From the UHGV virus genome UHGV-0293664: 64,000 nt of DNA. One strand, 5' to 3'. The translations under genes and the position numbers were made by a program. Under the pieces are notes generated by a model. That model ran no database searches. It saw only the letters and a list, made by a program, of their open reading frames with translations, and had not been told where the DNA came from. Below, in pieces: positions 18,862 through 52,804 of the stretch (within the stretch, counting starts at the first letter, position 1; each line of letters starts with the position of its first letter). This stretch comes from a virus.

Positions 18862-19320
18862 TTAGAAGTTTGTTTTTACACGTCCCTTTTCATCAACCTC
18901 GTTGTTAGCTAAAAGCGTTACAAAGTCTGTGAAACGGACATGAAGAACTTTTTTCTTATCAAGGTATCCTAAAGCCACCCCTGAGAAATTTAGCATCAAA
19001 GGGGCTAAAGAAGCTCTGGCACTGAAATGCTGTTGTTCTACCCTTCCAACACCCTTAGTGTAGGATGGGTTAAGATTGTAAGTTCTGAATCCTAGTTTTG
19101 TTGGAGCTTTAGAATTAAAAACAACTTTATAGCGTTTCTTACTCAACTTATGCTCAAGGATAAGCATTCCCTTATCACCCTTGATAAGCTGAAAATCTGT
19201 AAAGTGCTCTTTTAAGACGAAAGGTAGTGCCAGTCCCATCGCCTGCCCCCTTTGTACCGCTGTCTCACCAAAAGCTTTTGCATCAGTAAGTTCTTTAGTC
19301 AAGTCTATGCTTTTGATCAT
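18862..19320 (-). CDS. hypothetical protein (152 aa)
   Basis: ORF. Confidence 0.4.
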   Translation of the reverse strand: MIKSIDLTKELTDAKAFGETAVQRGQAMGLALPFVLKEHFTDFQLIKGDKGMLILEHKLSKKRYKVVFNSKAPTKLGFRTYNLNPSYTKGVGRVEQQHFSARASLAPLMLNFSGVALGYLDKKKVLHVRFTDFVTLLANNEVDEKGRVKTNF

Positions 19321-47645: not shown

Positions 47646-49022
47646 ATGCCATATTTAGATAAAGTGGTAGATGTTACAGTTAACCTCGGAACCCAGCCTA
47701 TTGACACTGTAGGTTTCGAAACCCCGCTGTTCATCGCTATCCACAACAACTTTACTGAGCGAGCTCGCGTGTATGCTGAGCTGGACCAGATGGTGGAAGA
47801 CGGTTTCGCACAAGGCTCTGCAGCGTATGAGTTTGCAGCAAAAGCTTTCGGCGGTGTATTCCCTCCACAATACGTTATAATCGGCAGACAGGCTAAAGAA
47901 AAAACCACTGTAGATTTTAAAGGTATTGCTGCCGCAGCCGATACCGATGTCGTAATGACCATTGCAAAAGGCAGCTACAATACTTCTTTGATAGTGCCTA
48001 TCTCTGGTGGAACAGCTGCAACTCAGATTGCAGAATCAATGAAGACTAAAATCGAAGCAGATGATAACTTGGACGATATCACTGTAGCGGCTGAAGACGG
48101 TGTTATCACCATCACTGGTGACTGTACTGTAGGTTATCATACTGGTAACTATACAATCAAAAATATCGCCAATGCTGAAAAACCTTCTACAGTAGTTGAT
48201 AAGATCAATGCTGAGCGTGACAATTGGTACTTCCTGTGCCATGAAGACCACACCGACATTGAAGCATGTGCTAAGTGGGCTCAGGCCAACTACAAGCTGC
48301 ATGTTTACTCTACTGCAGAAGATGTGACTGGTAAAGATAATAACATCGCCACCAAACTGATGGCTGCACAATATGACAGTGTTGGCATGTACGATCCTCG
48401 TGCTGATAAAGATTTTCCAGAGGGTGGTATCGTAGGCGCTATGGCATCCAACGATCCGTCTTACGGTGACAGCTTGCACTTAAAACAGATGCCGGGTGTG
48501 ATTGCACCATCTCTGACTTTAACTCAGCGTATGGCGATTTGGGAAAACCACGTTAACTTCTACAGAATGATTAACGGTGTTGGCGCTTTCTGGGAAGGTA
48601 AGTGTGCTTCAGGTCAGTATGCAGACGCTATTCGTTTTGCACACTGGATCAAGTTCAGATCTGAAGAATCCATGTTTGGGTACATGCATCGTCGCTCTAA
48701 TATGGGTTTAAGCATGAAGATGTCCGATGATGATCTCCCGGTTATCAAGTCTGTCCTGATGAACAACCCAATCAACACTGGCATTAAGAATGGTGCGATC
48801 CTGACAGGTTTCGACGAAGACAATAATGTATTCTACGACCCGATCATTACAGTTCCTAAACGTGCAGAAATCCCAACCAATCAGTTGGCTGCTCGTGTTC
48901 TGGAAGGTGTGAAAGTAGAGCTGGTGTATAACAACGCCCTGCACTTCGTTCGTATCCGGATCAACGTCCTTCTGGACAAAGTTGGTTCTAAATCCACCAA
49001 TGCTGTTGCAATGACTGAATAA
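47646..49022 (+). CDS. putative tail sheath protein
   Basis: 458-aa protein immediately before a 157-aa tube-like gene, chaperone pair and tape measure (myovirus order); high-expression codon usage. Confidence 0.45.
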   Translation: MPYLDKVVDVTVNLGTQPIDTVGFETPLFIAIHNNFTERARVYAELDQMVEDGFAQGSAAYEFAAKAFGGVFPPQYVIIGRQAKEKTTVDFKGIAAAADTDVVMTIAKGSYNTSLIVPISGGTAATQIAESMKTKIEADDNLDDITVAAEDGVITITGDCTVGYHTGNYTIKNIANAEKPSTVVDKINAERDNWYFLCHEDHTDIEACAKWAQANYKLHVYSTAEDVTGKDNNIATKLMAAQYDSVGMYDPRADKDFPEGGIVGAMASNDPSYGDSLHLKQMPGVIAPSLTLTQRMAIWENHVNFYRMINGVGAFWEGKCASGQYADAIRFAHWIKFRSEESMFGYMHRRSNMGLSMKMSDDDLPVIKSVLMNNPINTGIKNGAILTGFDEDNNVFYDPIITVPKRAEIPTNQLAARVLEGVKVELVYNNALHFVRIRINVLLDKVGSKSTNAVAMTE

Positions 49023-49032
49023 GGAAGCCTAG

Positions 49033-49506
49033 ATGGAAACTCAAATTTTAACTCCTTATGCGTATGACCCTAAAAAGGTCAAACTGTATCTGATGCAGCA
49101 GCGTGTCACTGGCTTCGCTGCTGACACCAAGATTGTTGTTTCAAGAAACGAAGACAACATTTATCCCCACGTCGGTGTGGATGGCGAAATGTCTGCAGCT
49201 CTGTCCCGTAACCAATCTGGTGTTATGACTGTATCTTTGCAGAACACTTCTGTATGGAACGCTTACCTTTCTGACTGGCAGAAACAGGCATCGATTACTG
49301 GCCTGGTATTCTTCCCGGTTCTGCTGGAAGGTAGCCAGGGCCCTGGTATTTCCACAATCGGTTGGATCCAGAAACAGCCTGACCTGACTTACGGAACCGA
49401 AGTAGGTCAACTGGACTGGGATATCGGTATTCTGGATGCATGGCTCAACCGTGATAACATCACTGGTGCTCTTACTGGCCTCGCAGGTCTTGCAGGTATT
49501 ATCTAA
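49033..49506 (+). CDS. putative tail tube protein
   Basis: 157-aa protein between sheath-like gene and chaperone genes; followed by strong terminator. Confidence 0.45.
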   Translation: METQILTPYAYDPKKVKLYLMQQRVTGFAADTKIVVSRNEDNIYPHVGVDGEMSAALSRNQSGVMTVSLQNTSVWNAYLSDWQKQASITGLVFFPVLLEGSQGPGISTIGWIQKQPDLTYGTEVGQLDWDIGILDAWLNRDNITGALTGLAGLAGII

Positions 49507-49524
49507 GGGCACACTTTAGCATAA

Positions 49525-49551
49525 GCCTCACCTTCGGGTGGGGCTTTTTGC
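49525..49551 (+). terminator. rho-independent terminator
   Basis: GCCTCACC-ttcg-GGTGGGGC hairpin then TTTTTGCTTTT. Confidence 0.65.
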
Positions 49552-49596
49552 TTTTATGGTTTTGACACACGTTCTTGAATTGCTTGAAAGGTTAAA

Positions 49597-49625
49597 TTGA
49601 CAATGCACAATAATCATGGTAAAAT
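49597..49625 (+). promoter_or_regulatory. sigma70-like promoter
   Basis: TTGACA (49597-49602), 17-nt spacer, TAAAAT (49620-49625). Confidence 0.5.
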
Positions 49626-49668
49626 ACACAAATATGGTGCACAACATGACTAATAAGGATGCTATAAA

Positions 49669-50142
49669 ATGGCTATAAACTTTAGACCTACAACAGAGAT
49701 TGATTTAGCAGGGCACAACTTTGTGATCACCCACTGGGGACCGATGAAAGCAATGAAAAACATGCCTAAAATCGGTAAGATTGTGGCTGTCCCGCTAGGT
49801 GCTATCGGCGGATCTATTATCTCAGGCGGTCAGAACATGGCAGAAGTCCTTCCTACTGCTCTGGCTTACCTGTTCCAAGAACTTGATGATAACTCTATTG
49901 AAGAGTTATTTAAAATTTTGTTCGAAGATATTACCGTAGATGGTGTGGATAAGCTTAACCCGGATGTTGTGTTTGCAGGGCATCTGCTGGAGATGATTAA
50001 GCTGGCAGGTAAGGTTCTGGAGGTTAACTACGGCTGTTTTTTCACACAAGACGGTTTAGGAAGCCTTCTGGAGATGTTACAGCAGATGGGTATGATTCAG
50101 CAGGTGAACAACCTGGATCAGACTCCGGAAGAGCAGGAATAA
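49669..50142 (+). CDS. putative tail assembly chaperone (G-like)
   Basis: 157-aa acidic protein immediately upstream of the tape measure gene. Confidence 0.5.
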   Translation: MAINFRPTTEIDLAGHNFVITHWGPMKAMKNMPKIGKIVAVPLGAIGGSIISGGQNMAEVLPTALAYLFQELDDNSIEELFKILFEDITVDGVDKLNPDVVFAGHLLEMIKLAGKVLEVNYGCFFTQDGLGSLLEMLQQMGMIQQVNNLDQTPEEQE

Positions 50143-50402
50143 GCAAGGTTGTTGTGAGGGCCAGTGAGTGGGCAGCCAAGAACAGTTCACTCAACTGGTT
50201 CGACTTTCTTTGGTGCAGGGTGCTCAAGAATTTCAAAGGGGAAAATTTTGAATCGCTAAATCTTGCAGATATGGCGTATTTCCTGAAGCTCTGTGAGTAT
50301 CTTGATATCGAAGAATTCCTAGATACCGTCCAAAACAGGGAAATGGAGCGGGAGCAGAAGGCTGCCGCAGCTGCTGCGAAAGCTAAGCGCAGGAGAGGAT
50401 AA
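50028..50402 (+). CDS. -1 frame extension of tail assembly chaperone (GT-like frameshift product, C-terminal part)
   Basis: Frame -1 relative to the chaperone ORF is open from 50028 to 50402 and overlaps its last 115 nt; T_TTT_TTC slippery heptamer at 50037-50043. Confidence 0.4.
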   Translation, partial: LRLFFHTRRFRKPSGDVTADGYDSAGEQPGSDSGRAGISKVVVRASEWAAKNSSLNWFDFLWCRVLKNFKGENFESLNLADMAYFLKLCEYLDIEEFLDTVQNREMEREQKAAAAAAKAKRRRG

Positions 50403-50407
50403 TCTAA

Positions 50408-50442
50408 GGGCCGGATTCCTTTTCTGGGATCTGGCCCTTTTT
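50408..50442 (+). terminator. possible rho-independent terminator
   Basis: GGGCCGGA...TCTGGCCC hairpin then TTTTTATT. Confidence 0.4.
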
Positions 50443-50456
50443 ATTATGAGGAAACC

Positions 50457-52793
50457 ATGGCTACAAACAAAATAGTTGCCACAACAGTCAACAAGATTGG
50501 CTTTGAGATAGAGAACTCCTCCTACAAAAAAGCTGTAGAGAAAATTCGCAGTATTGGGAGGGAGTTCAGGAAACTGGGCGAAGATTTTAACTCAGCCAAC
50601 CCCATGAGCAGATGGCAGGCGGTAGCTGTTAAAACCCAGCAGACAATGCAGCGGGTTGCCAGACAGCAATCTCAGGCAAATGCTAAACTGCACAGAGAGA
50701 GCGTAGCACAGGCCAAGAAAGAGGCTGCAGTAAGGGCTGCAATAGAACGTAGGGAGAATGCGAGACGTAAACAAGCTGTAGGTAATCTTACCGCTAAAAA
50801 TCCAGAAATGGCTAGGATGCGTAAGTTCTACCAGCAGCAAGCTAAAGAGGCCAAAAAGGCTGCCAAATCTGCACCAGTGTCTTACGGTGGTTATAAGGCA
50901 CCTAAGGCAAGAGTTTTGGCTAATGCCAAATCTTTCAAATATATCCCCGGTAACCCTAATATGGGTGGTGTGGCTTCCGACCCTAACCTTGTGAAAGCTC
51001 AGACAGCCGCTATGAATCGTTATCATAGACAGCTAAGAAGAGACAGTAAAGCTGGTATGGATAATAAGCTTATGTCGGATCGTGAGGCAAGGAGAACCCA
51101 CCTCTACAACTCCGCGATAAGACTTTCTGCCAAGTATGGGGCCGGATTCCGTGGAAGCTTGCCAGGATACTCAGAGTTAGAGTCCAGGTTTGCTCGCGGG
51201 GAGATGAAGAAGTCAACCTTTAACGCCCACCTGTCAGCGCTGCAGTCTGGGTTTAAAAGCGCCACCAGCCAAACGCTTACACTAGGTGATGCCATGAGAG
51301 ACCTACGTAGATCTGTTATTAATGCAACAGCTGCGTATACGGCTTTTTCTGGATTTGCTGCGGTTAACAGATCCGGTCACATGATGGAGGGGGCAAGTGC
51401 TGCTCTTACTGCTGTTACTGGAGATCCAAACAAAGCCAACAGTGAGGTTGCGTTTGTCCAGCAAGAGGCTATGCGTCTTGGTTTTGATCTCAAATCTGGT
51501 CTTCAAGGTTACGCCCAGATGTCGGTAAACGCCAAAAACCAGATGACAAATCAGGAAGTGCATGAGCTGTTTTCTGCATACTCACAGTATGCTGCTGCTT
51601 ATGGTGCCGATGAGGTAAAATACCAGCGCGGTATTATGGCTATCCAACAGATGCTAGGCAAGGGACAAGTAATGTCCGAAGAACTGAAGCAACAACTTGC
51701 TGAAGCATTGCCCGGTGCATACGAACCTTTTATCAAGGCCACCAAAGAGGCTTTTGGTCTTTCTGAACTCTCCATGGATCAGTTCATGGACATGATGAAG
51801 AAAGGTGAGGTTAAAACAGCCAAGATCATGAAGTATGTGGCTAAGTACATGAACGAGGCATCTGCAGCTGGTTATGAAAGAATGCAGAAGTCTAACGTGC
51901 TGGCAGAAAACAGACTGAAAACCTTCATCGAACTGACTCGTCAGAAACTGTTCACCCGTTGGTCCGACGAACTAACAGAGTTCTATTATACACTAATCCG
52001 CACTGGTGAGACTCTGCAATTTGTGTGGGATGCCTCTGGTGATTTTGTTAGCGGGTTTGTGAGAGGCCTTAACTGGGTAGTTGGTGAACTAAACAACACC
52101 ATAGTCAAGATCCGCATGTTTTTCCTTGAATGGGGGATTAAATGGGGATTCATAACAGCTAAGACGAAGGAATATTCTGAAGAGCTTCATGACACCTTTA
52201 GTTATGCTAAATGGGCAGGGTTTGCTGCTGCCATTATGCTGGTAGTGAACGCCCTAACAAAAGGTTTTGTCATGGCATCCATGCTTGTAAAAACCTTTAA
52301 ATTCCTTAACTCTCTAAGGGGTGCAGCCGGAGCAGCGGGTGCCGCTACTACAGAAGGATCTGGTGGTGGTGCTCCGGCAGGAAAAGGGGGAGGTGGCCTC
52401 AAGACACCTGGTGGCAAAGTTGGTCTGCTCGGTAAGTTGGGCATTATCGGTACAATACTAAGCGCCGGGGAATTGTTTAATGACCGTTACAACCCACTAA
52501 GTGAAAGAAATCAGCAGCTGGATACCATCAGTGATATGATTCGTAAAGATATCATATCTGGAGGTAACGGGTTTGTTAATCCTTTGGACACCTTACCGGG
52601 AGGGACTCTTCCGTTACCAGGTGGTCCTGGTTTTGCTTCTCAATTAAGAACTATGGAAATGCTGCCTTTAGAGATCAGTGATGGGAAAATCACGATTTCA
52701 ATAGATGAGGGTGAGTTTAACAAAATATTTGATGCAAAACTGGAGTGGGAGAACAATAAAGATATCAACTTCATGTCTACCGACCTTTGGTAA
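50457..52793 (+). CDS. tail tape measure protein
   Basis: 778 aa, long helical Ala/Lys/Gln-rich regions, Gly-rich stretch, located right after the chaperone pair. Confidence 0.7.
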   Translation: MATNKIVATTVNKIGFEIENSSYKKAVEKIRSIGREFRKLGEDFNSANPMSRWQAVAVKTQQTMQRVARQQSQANAKLHRESVAQAKKEAAVRAAIERRENARRKQAVGNLTAKNPEMARMRKFYQQQAKEAKKAAKSAPVSYGGYKAPKARVLANAKSFKYIPGNPNMGGVASDPNLVKAQTAAMNRYHRQLRRDSKAGMDNKLMSDREARRTHLYNSAIRLSAKYGAGFRGSLPGYSELESRFARGEMKKSTFNAHLSALQSGFKSATSQTLTLGDAMRDLRRSVINATAAYTAFSGFAAVNRSGHMMEGASAALTAVTGDPNKANSEVAFVQQEAMRLGFDLKSGLQGYAQMSVNAKNQMTNQEVHELFSAYSQYAAAYGADEVKYQRGIMAIQQMLGKGQVMSEELKQQLAEALPGAYEPFIKATKEAFGLSELSMDQFMDMMKKGEVKTAKIMKYVAKYMNEASAAGYERMQKSNVLAENRLKTFIELTRQKLFTRWSDELTEFYYTLIRTGETLQFVWDASGDFVSGFVRGLNWVVGELNNTIVKIRMFFLEWGIKWGFITAKTKEYSEELHDTFSYAKWAGFAAAIMLVVNALTKGFVMASMLVKTFKFLNSLRGAAGAAGAATTEGSGGGAPAGKGGGGLKTPGGKVGLLGKLGIIGTILSAGELFNDRYNPLSERNQQLDTISDMIRKDIISGGNGFVNPLDTLPGGTLPLPGGPGFASQLRTMEMLPLEISDGKITISIDEGEFNKIFDAKLEWENNKDINFMSTDLW

Positions 52794-52804
52794 TAAACTG
52801 TGCA

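What the first reader, a model, noticed from the sequence alone, without database searches (positions are those of the whole stretch)
49669..50402. Candidate programmed -1 frameshift in the tail assembly chaperone
The -1 frame relative to the chaperone ORF is open from 50028 and continues past its stop for another 85 codons, ending just before the tape measure gene. Inside the overlap is a T_TTT_TTC heptamer in the correct zero-frame register. This matches the conserved G/GT chaperone frameshift of tailed phages.
Basis: partly seen in the sequence, partly recalled or inferred. Interest (0 to 1): 0.5.

Follow-up and report, generated by a model that had tools for sequence, protein, structure and literature searches.

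The report
Tail chaperone −1 frameshift, rV5-like phage
[quoted passage not shown] This is the ordinary "G/GT" trick of tailed phages, real and strongly conserved here but left out of public annotations of this phage group.

Summary
The chaperone ORF is 49669-50142, and the −1 frame is open from 50028 to 50402, 85 sense codons past the 0-frame stop. T_TTT_TTC at 50037-50043 is the only in-register X_XXY_YYZ heptamer in the gene.

The window is a Vequintavirus (98.9% identical to rV5-like coliphages). The gene lies between the tail tube and tape measure genes and matches Pfam Phage_TAC_15.

In 18 lineages, down to about 28% protein identity, an in-register slippery heptamer lies inside the overlap and the −1 frame stays open almost to the next gene. 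One lineage (Barbavirus) has lost the T-run and carries G_GGA_AAG four codons downstream. The −1-frame C-terminal domain is conserved as protein, yet in Mydovirus and Henunavirus it has no start codon for 144 nt. Synonymous-site identity peaks at 0.79-0.87 around the heptamer, against a gene mean of 0.49.

I found no downstream stimulatory RNA structure. A GGAGG lies 13 nt upstream, which is a plausible stimulator but is not universal.

Predicted products are G (157 aa, 17.3 kDa) and GT (244 aa, 27.1 kDa). None of the 25 GenBank records I inspected joins the two ORFs. It is a new member of a well-known kind, of low to moderate interest.

The parts
49597..49625 (+). Sigma-70-like promoter (TTGACA, 17 nt, TG-TAAAAT) upstream of the chaperone gene. 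Context only.
   Evidence: 11 of 12 matches with an extended -10 TG. The same site is annotated as promoter P51 in rV5.
49669..50142 (+). Zero-frame chaperone ORF, product G (TAC-N): 157 aa, 17.3 kDa, pI 4.5.
   Evidence: Pfam PF21822 Phage_TAC_15 at E=2.3e-23. phrog_3840 'tail assembly chaperone' at E=5e-69. The AF2 core spans residues about 8-122 and ends at the slip site.
50019..50023 (+). Internal Shine-Dalgarno-like GGAGG, 13 nt 5' of the heptamer. Candidate upstream frameshift stimulator (inferred).
   Evidence: duplex with the 16S 3' end is -10.5 kcal/mol, in the top 0.6% of 9-mers in the gene. An equivalent GGAGG or GAGGTGA lies 11-12 nt upstream in 8 of 18 lineages. PMC5009743 gives 9-14 nt as the stimulatory spacing for -1 shifts.
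50037..50043 (+). Slippery heptamer T_TTT_TTC (0-frame codons Phe124-Phe125). Both tRNA-Phe can re-pair on UUU UUU after a -1 slip.
   Evidence: It is invariant at the homologous NYG(C/P)FF codons in 16 of 18 lineages. Synonymous-site identity peaks here.
50043..50141 (+). Dual-coding overlap. The 0 frame encodes the acidic C-terminal tail of G (residues 126-157). The -1 frame encodes the Gly/Ser/Asp-rich linker of GT (HTRRFRKPSG...).
   Evidence: The AF2 models give low confidence for both stretches.
50043..50402 (+). -1-frame part of GT: 119 codons plus stop. The full GT is 125 + 119 = 244 aa, 27.1 kDa.
50139..50399 (+). Conserved T domain (ISKVV..KNSSLxWFDxLWCRxLKxFKGE..ADMxYLLxLxEYLDxEEF..RRG), predicted helical and basic.
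   Evidence: Alignment across genera. phrog_10409 at E=2e-51. tblastn finds it in 357 phage records; in each locus opened it lies just downstream of the TAC ORF. AF2 predicts four helices at low confidence.
50154..50402 (+). The 82-aa ORF that gene callers annotate as a separate 'hypothetical protein'. It starts at a GTG with a weak AAGG 5 nt upstream. This is the rival reading.
   Evidence: The start is not conserved in other genera.
50406..50439 (+). Intrinsic-terminator-like hairpin plus T-tract between the GT stop and the tape measure start. Context only.
   Evidence: 14-bp stem with 8 G-C pairs. Annotated as a terminator in rV5. Conserved with compensatory changes in the other Vequintavirinae genera.
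49033..49506 (+). Tail tube gene (upstream neighbour).
   Evidence: Pfam PF11681 and phrog_280. Identified as the tail tube protein gp52 in the rV5 proteome.
50457..52793 (+). Tape measure gene (downstream neighbour).
   Evidence: Pfam TMP_3 at E=1.8e-18 and phrog_5255 at E=0.

Best explanation
This is a programmed -1 ribosomal frameshift in the tail assembly chaperone gene.

Most ribosomes translate 49669-50142 and release G (157 aa). A minority slip back one base while the two tRNA-Phe occupy UUU-UUC at 50038-50043, re-pairing on UUU-UUU. They then read CAC at 50043 in the -1 frame and continue to the TAA at 50400. The product is GT (244 aa): residues 1-125 of G, a linker of about 33 residues, and a helical, basic T domain of about 86 residues.

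By analogy with lambda gpG/gpGT and P2 E/E+E', many copies of G plus a few of GT coat the tape measure protein. The T domain recruits the tail tube protein, so that tube and sheath polymerise to the measured length. Neither protein stays in the virion.

The slip probably relies on the intrinsic shiftiness of U_UUU_UUC. In this lineage a GGAGG 13 nt upstream may help by pairing with 16S rRNA. There is no downstream RNA structure.

What is shown: the sequence anatomy, the conservation, the dual coding and the missing start codon. What is inferred: that the slip occurs, its efficiency, the role of the GGAGG, and the binding partners.
For: Identity and position:
- TAC by Pfam PF21822 (2.3e-23) and phrog_3840 (5e-69).
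- The gene lies between the tube and tape measure genes.

Heptamer:
- It is the only in-register heptamer in the gene and lies inside the overlap.
- 18 of 18 lineages keep an in-register heptamer in the overlap, and their -1 frame stays open for 74-98 codons past the 0-frame stop. These are Vequintavirus, Mydovirus, Seunavirus, Henunavirus, Avunavirus, Certrevirus, Stephanstirmvirinae, Plateaulakevirus, KLEP7, Barbavirus and four metagenome contigs.
- 16 of them have T_TTT_TTC at the same codons. KLEP7 has C_CCT_TTT. Barba16S has no T-run and instead carries G_GGA_AAG four codons downstream.

T domain:
- It is conserved as protein in the -1 frame.
- The first ATG/GTG/TTG in that frame lies 12 to 144 nt past the 0-frame stop, depending on lineage. 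In Mydovirus and Henunavirus it would remove half the conserved domain.
- Annotators had to use a CTG start in rV5 and an ATT start in GAP31.

Other support:
- Synonymous-site identity is 0.79-0.87 at codons 118-130 against 0.49 for the gene.
- The -1 frame has 14 stops before the heptamer and none after.
- In IMG/VR the T6 form occurs in 11 contigs and the T5 and T7 forms in none.
- In E. coli U_UU.C is the second most shift-prone tetramer, and UUN/AAN heptamers are the most shift-prone (PMC4066793).
- P2 uses TTTTTTG without a hairpin (PMC3091744).
- A conserved GTTTTT -1 PRF site has been proposed for the TAC of the related Vandenendeviridae and Andersonviridae (PMC12846349).
Against: - There is no protein-level evidence. 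The rV5 virion MS tables contain no G or T peptides. That is expected for a chaperone, but it tests nothing.
- No significant downstream stimulatory structure was found (z-scores -1.3 to +1.1). Bare heptamers gave only 2-10 times background in E. coli reporters (PMC4066793).
- In this particular lineage a GTG with a weak AAGG lies 12 nt after the 0-frame stop. Some free T protein could therefore also be made.
- The upstream SD-like element is weak or absent in Certrevirus-like phages, phiA009 and Barba16S.
Confidence: 0.9

Rival explanations
1. Two separate genes. The downstream ORF is translated on its own from GTG 50154, as most GenBank records annotate it, and there is no functional frameshift.
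For: GTG 50154 has an AAGG 5 nt upstream. Gene callers call an 80-82 aa ORF here. A TTG or GTG lies at a similar place in L023 and A7_1.
Against: - The start is not conserved. Mydovirus and Henunavirus have no ATG/GTG/TTG until 144 nt past the stop, which lies inside the conserved domain.
- The conserved ISKVV motif begins upstream of GTG 50154.
- This reading does not explain the invariant in-register heptamer, the stop-free 100-nt overlap, the synonymous-site peak, or the G_GGA_AAG replacement in Barba16S.
Confidence: 0.05
2. Transcriptional slippage. RNA polymerase inserts one extra U in the T6 run, producing a minority mRNA in which G and T are in one frame. The protein would be identical to GT.
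For: The site is a run of six T. An inserted U would give the same Cys-Phe-Phe-His junction (read directly from the sequence).
Against: - Six T is short for efficient slippage. Runs of about 8-9 or more are typical (established knowledge; see the review PMC5009743).
- Barba16S keeps the arrangement with G_GGA_AAG and no homopolymer run, and KLEP7 has only T5.
- The register of the run relative to the 0 frame is strictly conserved. That matters for tRNA re-pairing but not for polymerase slippage.
Confidence: 0.04
3. Coincidence. The heptamer and the open -1 frame have no function, and the downstream ORF is not expressed.
For: None beyond the fact that in-register heptamers occur about once per 281 codons.
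Against: The heptamer, the frame and the -1-frame protein sequence are conserved across subfamilies, and synonymous sites are suppressed around the site.
Confidence: 0.01

Closest known systems
Phage lambda gpG/gpGT tail assembly chaperone frameshift (Levin 1993; Xu, Hendrix and Duda 2004, 2013, 2014; summarised in PMC5009743)
   Same: - Two overlapping ORFs sit between the major tail/tube gene and the tape measure gene.
[quoted passage not shown]
- Neither product is expected in virions.
   Different: - The heptamer is T_TTT_TTC, not G_GGA_AAG.
- The host phage is a 137-kb myovirus, not a siphovirus.
- There is no detectable sequence similarity to gpG or gpT (the Pfam family here is Phage_TAC_15).
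- The slip site is 33 codons before the stop, so G carries a sizeable private C-terminal tail.
- Binding partners and the G:GT ratio are untested here.
Phage P2 E/E+E' frameshift (Christie et al. 2002, as cited in PMC3091744)
   Same: - A myovirus TAC with a -1 slip on a T6 run (TTTTTTG in P2).
- No downstream RNA structure.
- Located in the tail tube / tape measure region.
   Different: - The last base is C, so the A-site codon is UUC (Phe) rather than UUG (Leu).
- The proteins are larger (157/244 aa against 91/142 aa) and not detectably homologous.
- An upstream GGAGG is present here.
Predicted TAC-N/TAC-NC -1 PRF with an invariant GTTTTT motif in Vandenendeviridae (Pakpunavirus Adele) and Andersonviridae (PMC12846349, 2025)
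   Same: - Those clades are described there as related to Vequintavirinae.
- The downstream 'hypothetical protein' is routinely mis-annotated in the same way.
- The evidence is the same in kind: an open -1 frame in all genomes and a conserved poly-T motif. The window's site, ctGTTTTTTc, contains that motif.
   Different: - That paper's TAC analysis covers Vandenendeviridae and Andersonviridae, not Vequintavirinae or Stephanstirmvirinae.
- Here the full heptamer register, a replaced heptamer (Barbavirus), the missing start codon and a synonymous-site profile are shown.
E. coli dnaX and IS-element -1 frameshift cassettes (upstream SD + heptamer + downstream hairpin or pseudoknot; PMC5009743, PMC4066793)
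   Same: An in-register heptamer with a Shine-Dalgarno-like sequence inside the 9-14 nt stimulatory range (13 nt here).
   Different: - There is no downstream hairpin or pseudoknot.
- The SD-like element is not universal in the family.
- It also encodes the conserved Leu-Glu-Val, so its conservation is ambiguous.

Membership tests
G/GT-type tail assembly chaperone with programmed -1 frameshift (Xu, Hendrix and Duda 2004) | Gene pair located between the major tail (tube) gene and the tape measure gene, on the same strand | tested here: met
   Tube 49033-49506, G 49669-50142, -1 ORF to 50402, TMP 50457-52793, all on the + strand.
G/GT-type tail assembly chaperone with programmed -1 frameshift (Xu, Hendrix and Duda 2004) | Second ORF overlaps the 3' end of the first in the -1 frame and extends well beyond its stop | tested here: met
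   115-nt overlap and 85 sense codons beyond the stop. The same holds in 18 of 18 lineages.
G/GT-type tail assembly chaperone with programmed -1 frameshift (Xu, Hendrix and Duda 2004) | Canonical slippery heptamer X_XXY_YYZ in the 0-frame register inside the overlap | tested here: met
   T_TTT_TTC at 50037-50043. Conserved, or replaced by another canonical heptamer, in all 18 lineages.
G/GT-type tail assembly chaperone with programmed -1 frameshift (Xu, Hendrix and Duda 2004) | Downstream ORF lacks its own conserved translation start | tested here: met
   The first start codon lies 12-144 nt past the stop, depending on lineage. There is none before the middle of the T domain in Mydovirus and Henunavirus. 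In this window itself a weak GTG/AAGG exists, so the feature is met at family level only.
G/GT-type tail assembly chaperone with programmed -1 frameshift (Xu, Hendrix and Duda 2004) | Two proteins with a common N-terminus made in a fixed ratio (about 30:1 in lambda), both needed for tail assembly | not testable with these tools
   This needs immunoblot or MS of infected cells plus genetics. The rV5 virion MS holds no G or T peptides.
G/GT-type tail assembly chaperone with programmed -1 frameshift (Xu, Hendrix and Duda 2004) | G part binds the tape measure protein; T part binds the tail tube protein | not testable with these tools
   Inferred by analogy (PMC5009743). The T-domain model is too poor for docking (pLDDT 51).
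Pfam PF21822 Phage_TAC_15 / PHROG 3840 (sequence family of the chaperone) | Score above the curated Pfam gathering threshold | tested here: met
   83.6 bits against a cut-off of 22, covering profile positions 2-125 of 127. phrog_3840 at 231.6 bits.
dnaX/IS-type stimulated -1 PRF cassette | Shine-Dalgarno-like sequence 9-14 nt 5' of the shift site | tested here: met
   GGAGG at 50019-50023 with a 13-nt spacer and -10.5 kcal/mol. The spacing rule comes from PMC5009743. Whether it functions was not tested.
dnaX/IS-type stimulated -1 PRF cassette | Stable hairpin or pseudoknot 5-9 nt 3' of the shift site | tested here: not met
   Folding z-scores run from -1.28 to +1.13 in five lineages. The consensus fold pairs the heptamer itself and shows almost no covariation.
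Transcriptional-slippage recoding | Long homopolymer run (typically 8-9 or more) conserved irrespective of reading-frame register | tested here: not met
   The run is T6 and its register is strictly conserved. Barba16S has no run at all.

The most novel reading that the evidence does not exclude
The frameshift in this large clade is set by an unusual combination of elements rather than by a downstream RNA structure.

- The first is a bare U_UUU_UUC.
- The second is an internal Shine-Dalgarno-like element 11-14 nt upstream. It has been displaced to 21 nt in Mydovirus and KLEP7 and lost in Certrevirus-like phages, Plateaulakevirus and Barbavirus.
- The third is a conserved terminator hairpin directly after the GT stop. 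It would attenuate tape measure transcription and so fix the G : GT : TMP stoichiometry at both the translational and the transcriptional level.

The clade would then be a natural series for studying how SD-stimulated -1 frameshifting is tuned in phage tail assembly.
Probability: 0.3. Interest if true: 0.4.

Novelty: new member of a known kind. Interest (0 to 1): 0.25.

Why it matters
The practical value is annotation. None of the 25 GenBank/RefSeq records I opened for this and related clades joins the two ORFs, and the blastn search alone returned 130 matching phage records. The second half is labelled 'hypothetical protein', sometimes with an invented CTG or ATT start, or is left out. These clades include phages used for phage therapy and biocontrol (rV5, PVP-SE1 and phi92-like phages).

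Recognising GT gives a function to an orphan PHROG (10409/8811/16039) and adds one of the larger myovirus clades to the conserved G/GT rule.

Biologically it is expected rather than surprising. Two points have mild mechanistic interest. Barbavirus has replaced T_TTT_TTC with G_GGA_AAG. The upstream SD-like element is variable while no 3' structure is present.

Tried and rejected
- **Downstream hairpin or pseudoknot.** I folded 50037-50145 and 47-nt windows after the heptamer in five lineages, and ran RNAalifold on six lineages. Nothing beat shuffled sequence and there was no useful covariation. A 5-bp CGAAA/TTTCG hairpin 1-2 nt after the heptamer exists in some genera but cannot form in this window and is too close to act as a stimulator.
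- **Natural in-frame G-T fusions or annotated fusion proteins.** A search of 5.8 billion proteins with the 244-aa GT returned only 149-159-aa G-type proteins. IMG/VR has no T5 or T7 variants of the site.
- **Structure of GT.** The model of G alone is moderate (pLDDT 66). The model of T alone is poor (pLDDT 51), so it was not used for fold search.
- **Fold search.** Foldseek of G against the PDB gave nothing significant. The best hit was 5ir0 at E=0.5.
- **Other family libraries.** NCBIfam gave nothing for G or T, and Pfam gave nothing for T.
- **Proteomic evidence.** The rV5 virion MS supplement has no G or T peptides.
- **Literature.** No paper in the searchable library describes this frameshift in Vequintavirinae.
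- **A second candidate in the window.** A_AAG_GGA in the minus-strand gene 18862-19320 gives a 30-codon -1 extension. I judged it chance and did not pursue it.

Full report
**What the window is.** The region 49000-52800 is 98.9% identical to many rV5-like coliphages (genus Vequintavirus, about 137 kb myoviruses). Around the finding, all on the + strand, lie:
- the tail sheath gene (47646-49022);
- the tail tube gene (49033-49506);
- the ORF in question (49669-50142);
- an 82-aa ORF (50154-50402);
- the tape measure gene (50457-52793), followed by baseplate genes.

The ORF in question matches Pfam PF21822 Phage_TAC_15 (E=2.3e-23, profile positions 2-125 of 127) and phrog_3840 'tail assembly chaperone' (E=5e-69). 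The 82-aa ORF matches only PHROGs of unknown function (10409, 8811, 16039).

**Checking the observation.**
- The 0 frame stops at TAA 50140-50142.
- In the −1 frame the last stop before the overlap is TAA 50025-50027. That frame is therefore open from 50028, and it closes at TAA 50400-50402.
- 85 sense codons start after the 0-frame stop.
- The 0-frame codons TGT TTT TTC (Cys123-Phe124-Phe125) place T_TTT_TTC (50037-50043) exactly in the X_XXY_YYZ register. It is the only such heptamer in the gene.

After a −1 slip the ribosome would read CAC at 50043. The result is a 244-aa fusion (27.1 kDa) alongside the 157-aa G (17.3 kDa).

**Is it more than chance?** Within the window alone it already looks deliberate.
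- In-register heptamers occur about once per 281 codons: 65 in a crude set of 70 ORFs.
- Only two of those lead into a −1 frame that passes the 0-frame stop. This one has an 86-codon extension, stop included; the other has 30.
- The −1 frame of the gene has 14 stops in the 123 codons before the heptamer and none in the 121 after it.

**Comparative evidence.** I collected the homologous locus from 17 further lineages:
- Mydovirus (KNP2, Mydo), Seunavirus (GAP31, SSE121, R7), Henunavirus (Hena1), Avunavirus (Av-05) and Certrevirus (PBES02);
- an unclassified vequintavirine (A7_1);
- Stephanstirmvirinae (phAPEC8, Eryne, phi1_175008);
- Plateaulakevirus (phiA009), Pseudaeromonas phage KLEP7 and Barbavirus (Barba16S);
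- four metagenome contigs.

Nucleotide identity to the window falls to about 64% and protein identity to about 28%.

In all 18 lineages an in-register canonical heptamer lies inside the overlap, and the −1 frame stays open for 74-98 codons past the 0-frame stop. In each locus where the tape measure gene follows, it ends 14-151 nt before that gene. Sixteen lineages have T_TTT_TTC at the same NYG(C/P)FF codons, and KLEP7 has C_CCT_TTT.

Barba16S has lost the Phe-Phe codons and has no T-run. It carries G_GGA_AAG, the lambda heptamer, four codons downstream, in register and inside the overlap. Replacing one slippery heptamer with a different one is what selection for frameshifting predicts. It is hard to explain otherwise.

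**The −1-frame sequence is a real protein with no start of its own.** Translated in the −1 frame, the downstream part aligns well across genera (ISKVVxRAxxYAxKNSSLxWFDxLWCRxLKxFKGE...ADMxYLLxLxEYLDxEEF...RRG). tblastn finds it in 357 phage records, and in every locus I opened it lies immediately downstream of the TAC ORF.

The first ATG/GTG/TTG in that frame lies anywhere from 12 to 144 nt after the 0-frame stop. In Mydovirus and Henunavirus there is none until the middle of the conserved domain. Annotators of rV5 and GAP31 resorted to CTG and ATT 'starts'. Others call truncated ORFs of 43-82 aa or leave the region empty. None of the 25 records I inspected carries a joined CDS.

**Synonymous-site profile.** I built a codon alignment of 15 lineages and measured the fraction of identical codons among identical, degenerate amino acids. 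It is 0.49 overall and mostly 0.33-0.55 along the gene. It rises to 0.79-0.87 in the 9-codon windows that start at codons 118-124 and so cover codons 118-132. This peak is centred on the heptamer (codons 124-125). [quoted passage not shown] This is the standard signature of an overlapping functional element plus dual coding.

**How the slip is likely driven.**
- Both slip codons are read by tRNA-Phe, which can re-pair perfectly on UUU-UUU.
- In E. coli reporters U_UU.C is the second most shift-prone tetramer after A_AA.G. Heptamers with UUN or AAN in the A site and homogeneous X/Z bases are the most shift-prone (PMC4066793).
- I found no downstream stimulator. The 109 nt from the heptamer fold no better than shuffles (z = −1.28). 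The 47-nt windows in five lineages give z from −0.10 to +1.13. RNAalifold pairs the heptamer itself and shows essentially no covariation.
- P2 E/E+E' slips on TTTTTTG and also has no such structure (PMC3091744).

Upstream, a GGAGG (50019-50023) lies 13 nt before the heptamer. Its predicted pairing with the 16S 3' end is −10.5 kcal/mol, in the top 0.6% of 9-mers in the gene. The published stimulatory spacing for −1 shifts is 9-14 nt (PMC5009743).
- Comparable elements (GGAGG or GAGGTGA) lie 11-12 nt upstream in 8 of 18 lineages.
- Weaker GGAG or AGGTGA matches lie 11-14 nt upstream in four more (three with GGAG, one with AGGTGA).
- A strong one lies 21 nt upstream in KNP2 and KLEP7, where the nearer Glu codon has changed.
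- There is nothing convincing in PBES02, L025, phiA009 or Barba16S.

The element also encodes the conserved Leu-Glu-Val. The only free choice is GAG over GAA, and 11 of the 12 lineages with Glu at this position use GAG, while the window's structural genes use the two about equally. I therefore rate it a plausible stimulator that is neither proven nor universal.

**Protein architecture.** The AlphaFold2 model of G (25-sequence alignment, pLDDT 66, pTM 0.62) has a reasonably confident core from about residue 8 to 122. It ends in a helix (106-121) that stops at the slip site, and residues 126-157 are low-confidence. The frameshift therefore swaps a 32-residue acidic tail for a Gly/Ser/Asp-rich linker plus the T domain. 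The T model is poor (pLDDT 51). It suggests a disordered first 32 residues followed by four helices. Foldseek of G against the PDB found nothing significant.

**Function, by analogy.** In lambda, G and the G part of GT bind the tape measure protein. The T part binds the major tail protein. The two are needed at about 30:1, and neither is in the virion (PMC5009743). The rV5 virion proteome lists the tube, sheath and tape measure proteins but contains no G or T peptides. That fits a chaperone role but does not test the fusion.

**Rivals.**
- *Independent initiation at GTG 50154* is possible in this lineage as a side route, since a weak AAGG lies 5 nt upstream. It cannot be the conserved mechanism.
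- *Transcriptional slippage on T6* would give the same protein. It is disfavoured by the short run, by the strict conservation of register, and by Barba16S, which has no run.
- *Coincidence* is excluded by the comparative data.

**Novelty.** The mechanism is textbook (lambda G/GT, P2 E/E+E'). A December 2025 paper proposed the same −1 frameshift, with an invariant GTTTTT motif, for the TAC of Vandenendeviridae and Andersonviridae. It describes those clades as related to Vequintavirinae, but its TAC analysis does not cover Vequintavirinae (PMC12846349). I found no paper in the searchable library describing the frameshift for Vequintavirinae or Stephanstirmvirinae and no database record annotating it. 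It is a new, unannotated member of a known kind. The finding is real and well supported, and its value lies mainly in annotation.

Noticed in passing
window 50406-50439 (+), with the T-tract to about 50449: A strong intrinsic-terminator-like hairpin (14-bp stem) sits in the 54-nt gap between the GT stop and the tape measure start codon. A similar hairpin plus T-tract is present, with compensatory stem changes, in all other Vequintavirinae genera examined and in phiA009. It is absent in phAPEC8 and phi1_175008, where the gap is only 14-20 nt. It may attenuate tape measure transcription relative to the chaperone, or stabilise the chaperone mRNA 3' end.
   Followed up: partly
window 49523-49546 (+) and 49597-49625 (+): A terminator-like hairpin follows the tail tube gene. 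A near-consensus sigma-70 promoter (TTGACA, 17 nt, TG-TAAAAT, 11 of 12 matches) then precedes the chaperone gene. The chaperone ORFs therefore look like their own small transcription unit, bracketed by terminators. rV5 annotates this promoter (P51), together with the terminator downstream of the chaperone ORFs (50408-50445).
   Followed up: partly
L001 (rV5 RefSeq NC_011041) 1535-1903 and L009 (GAP31) 1077-1343: The public annotation of the downstream ORF starts at a CTG three bases before the heptamer in rV5 and at an ATT in GAP31. The annotators evidently saw a long ORF with no proper start. Other records-82-aa fragments or nothing.
   Followed up: yes
phage collection hits MG0656xx (e.g. 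H26, H27, H36, H37, H48, H50, H81, H88, H94): About 18-23 unannotated GenBank records named 'Campylobacter phage' (host C. jejuni) are 98-100% identical to rV5-like E. coli phages across this locus. Mislabelling or contamination of those records seems likely.
   Followed up: no
window 18862-19320 (- strand): This 152-aa ORF has an in-register A_AAG_GGA nine codons before its stop, and its -1 frame runs 30 codons past the stop. It is the only other heptamer in the window with a -1 extension. GGN A-site codons are poor shifters and the extension is short, so it is probably chance.
   Followed up: partly
L020 (Rheinheimera phage Barba16S) 811-2158: Besides its replaced heptamer (G_GGA_AAG), this phage has no tape measure gene directly after the chaperone pair. 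The next gene is on the opposite strand and is annotated as a putative DNA-binding protein.
   Followed up: no
L023 and L024 (human gut and other metagenome contigs, G 74% identical to the window's): In this uncultured lineage a large DUF723 (PF05265) protein gene of 512-621 aa lies directly upstream of the chaperone gene, where the window has the tail tube gene. It is possibly an inserted homing-endonuclease-like gene.
   Followed up: no
AF2 model of G (window 49669-50139) against PDB 5ir0: The best, non-significant Foldseek hit of the chaperone model is ORF19 of a Vibrio cholerae PICI-like element (PLE): probability 0.95, E=0.5, TM 0.58 over the target. That protein has no known function. 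This hints that the satellite may encode a chaperone-like protein, but the match is too weak to claim.
   Followed up: no
window 50043-50141 and homologues: In the dual-coding overlap both frames look constrained. The -1 frame keeps an RFR(K/R)PSG-like motif right after the shift in most lineages, including Barba16S, where the shift site has moved. The 0 frame keeps a G(F/L)xxLxxLL pattern. Which frame drives the conservation is unresolved.
   Followed up: partly
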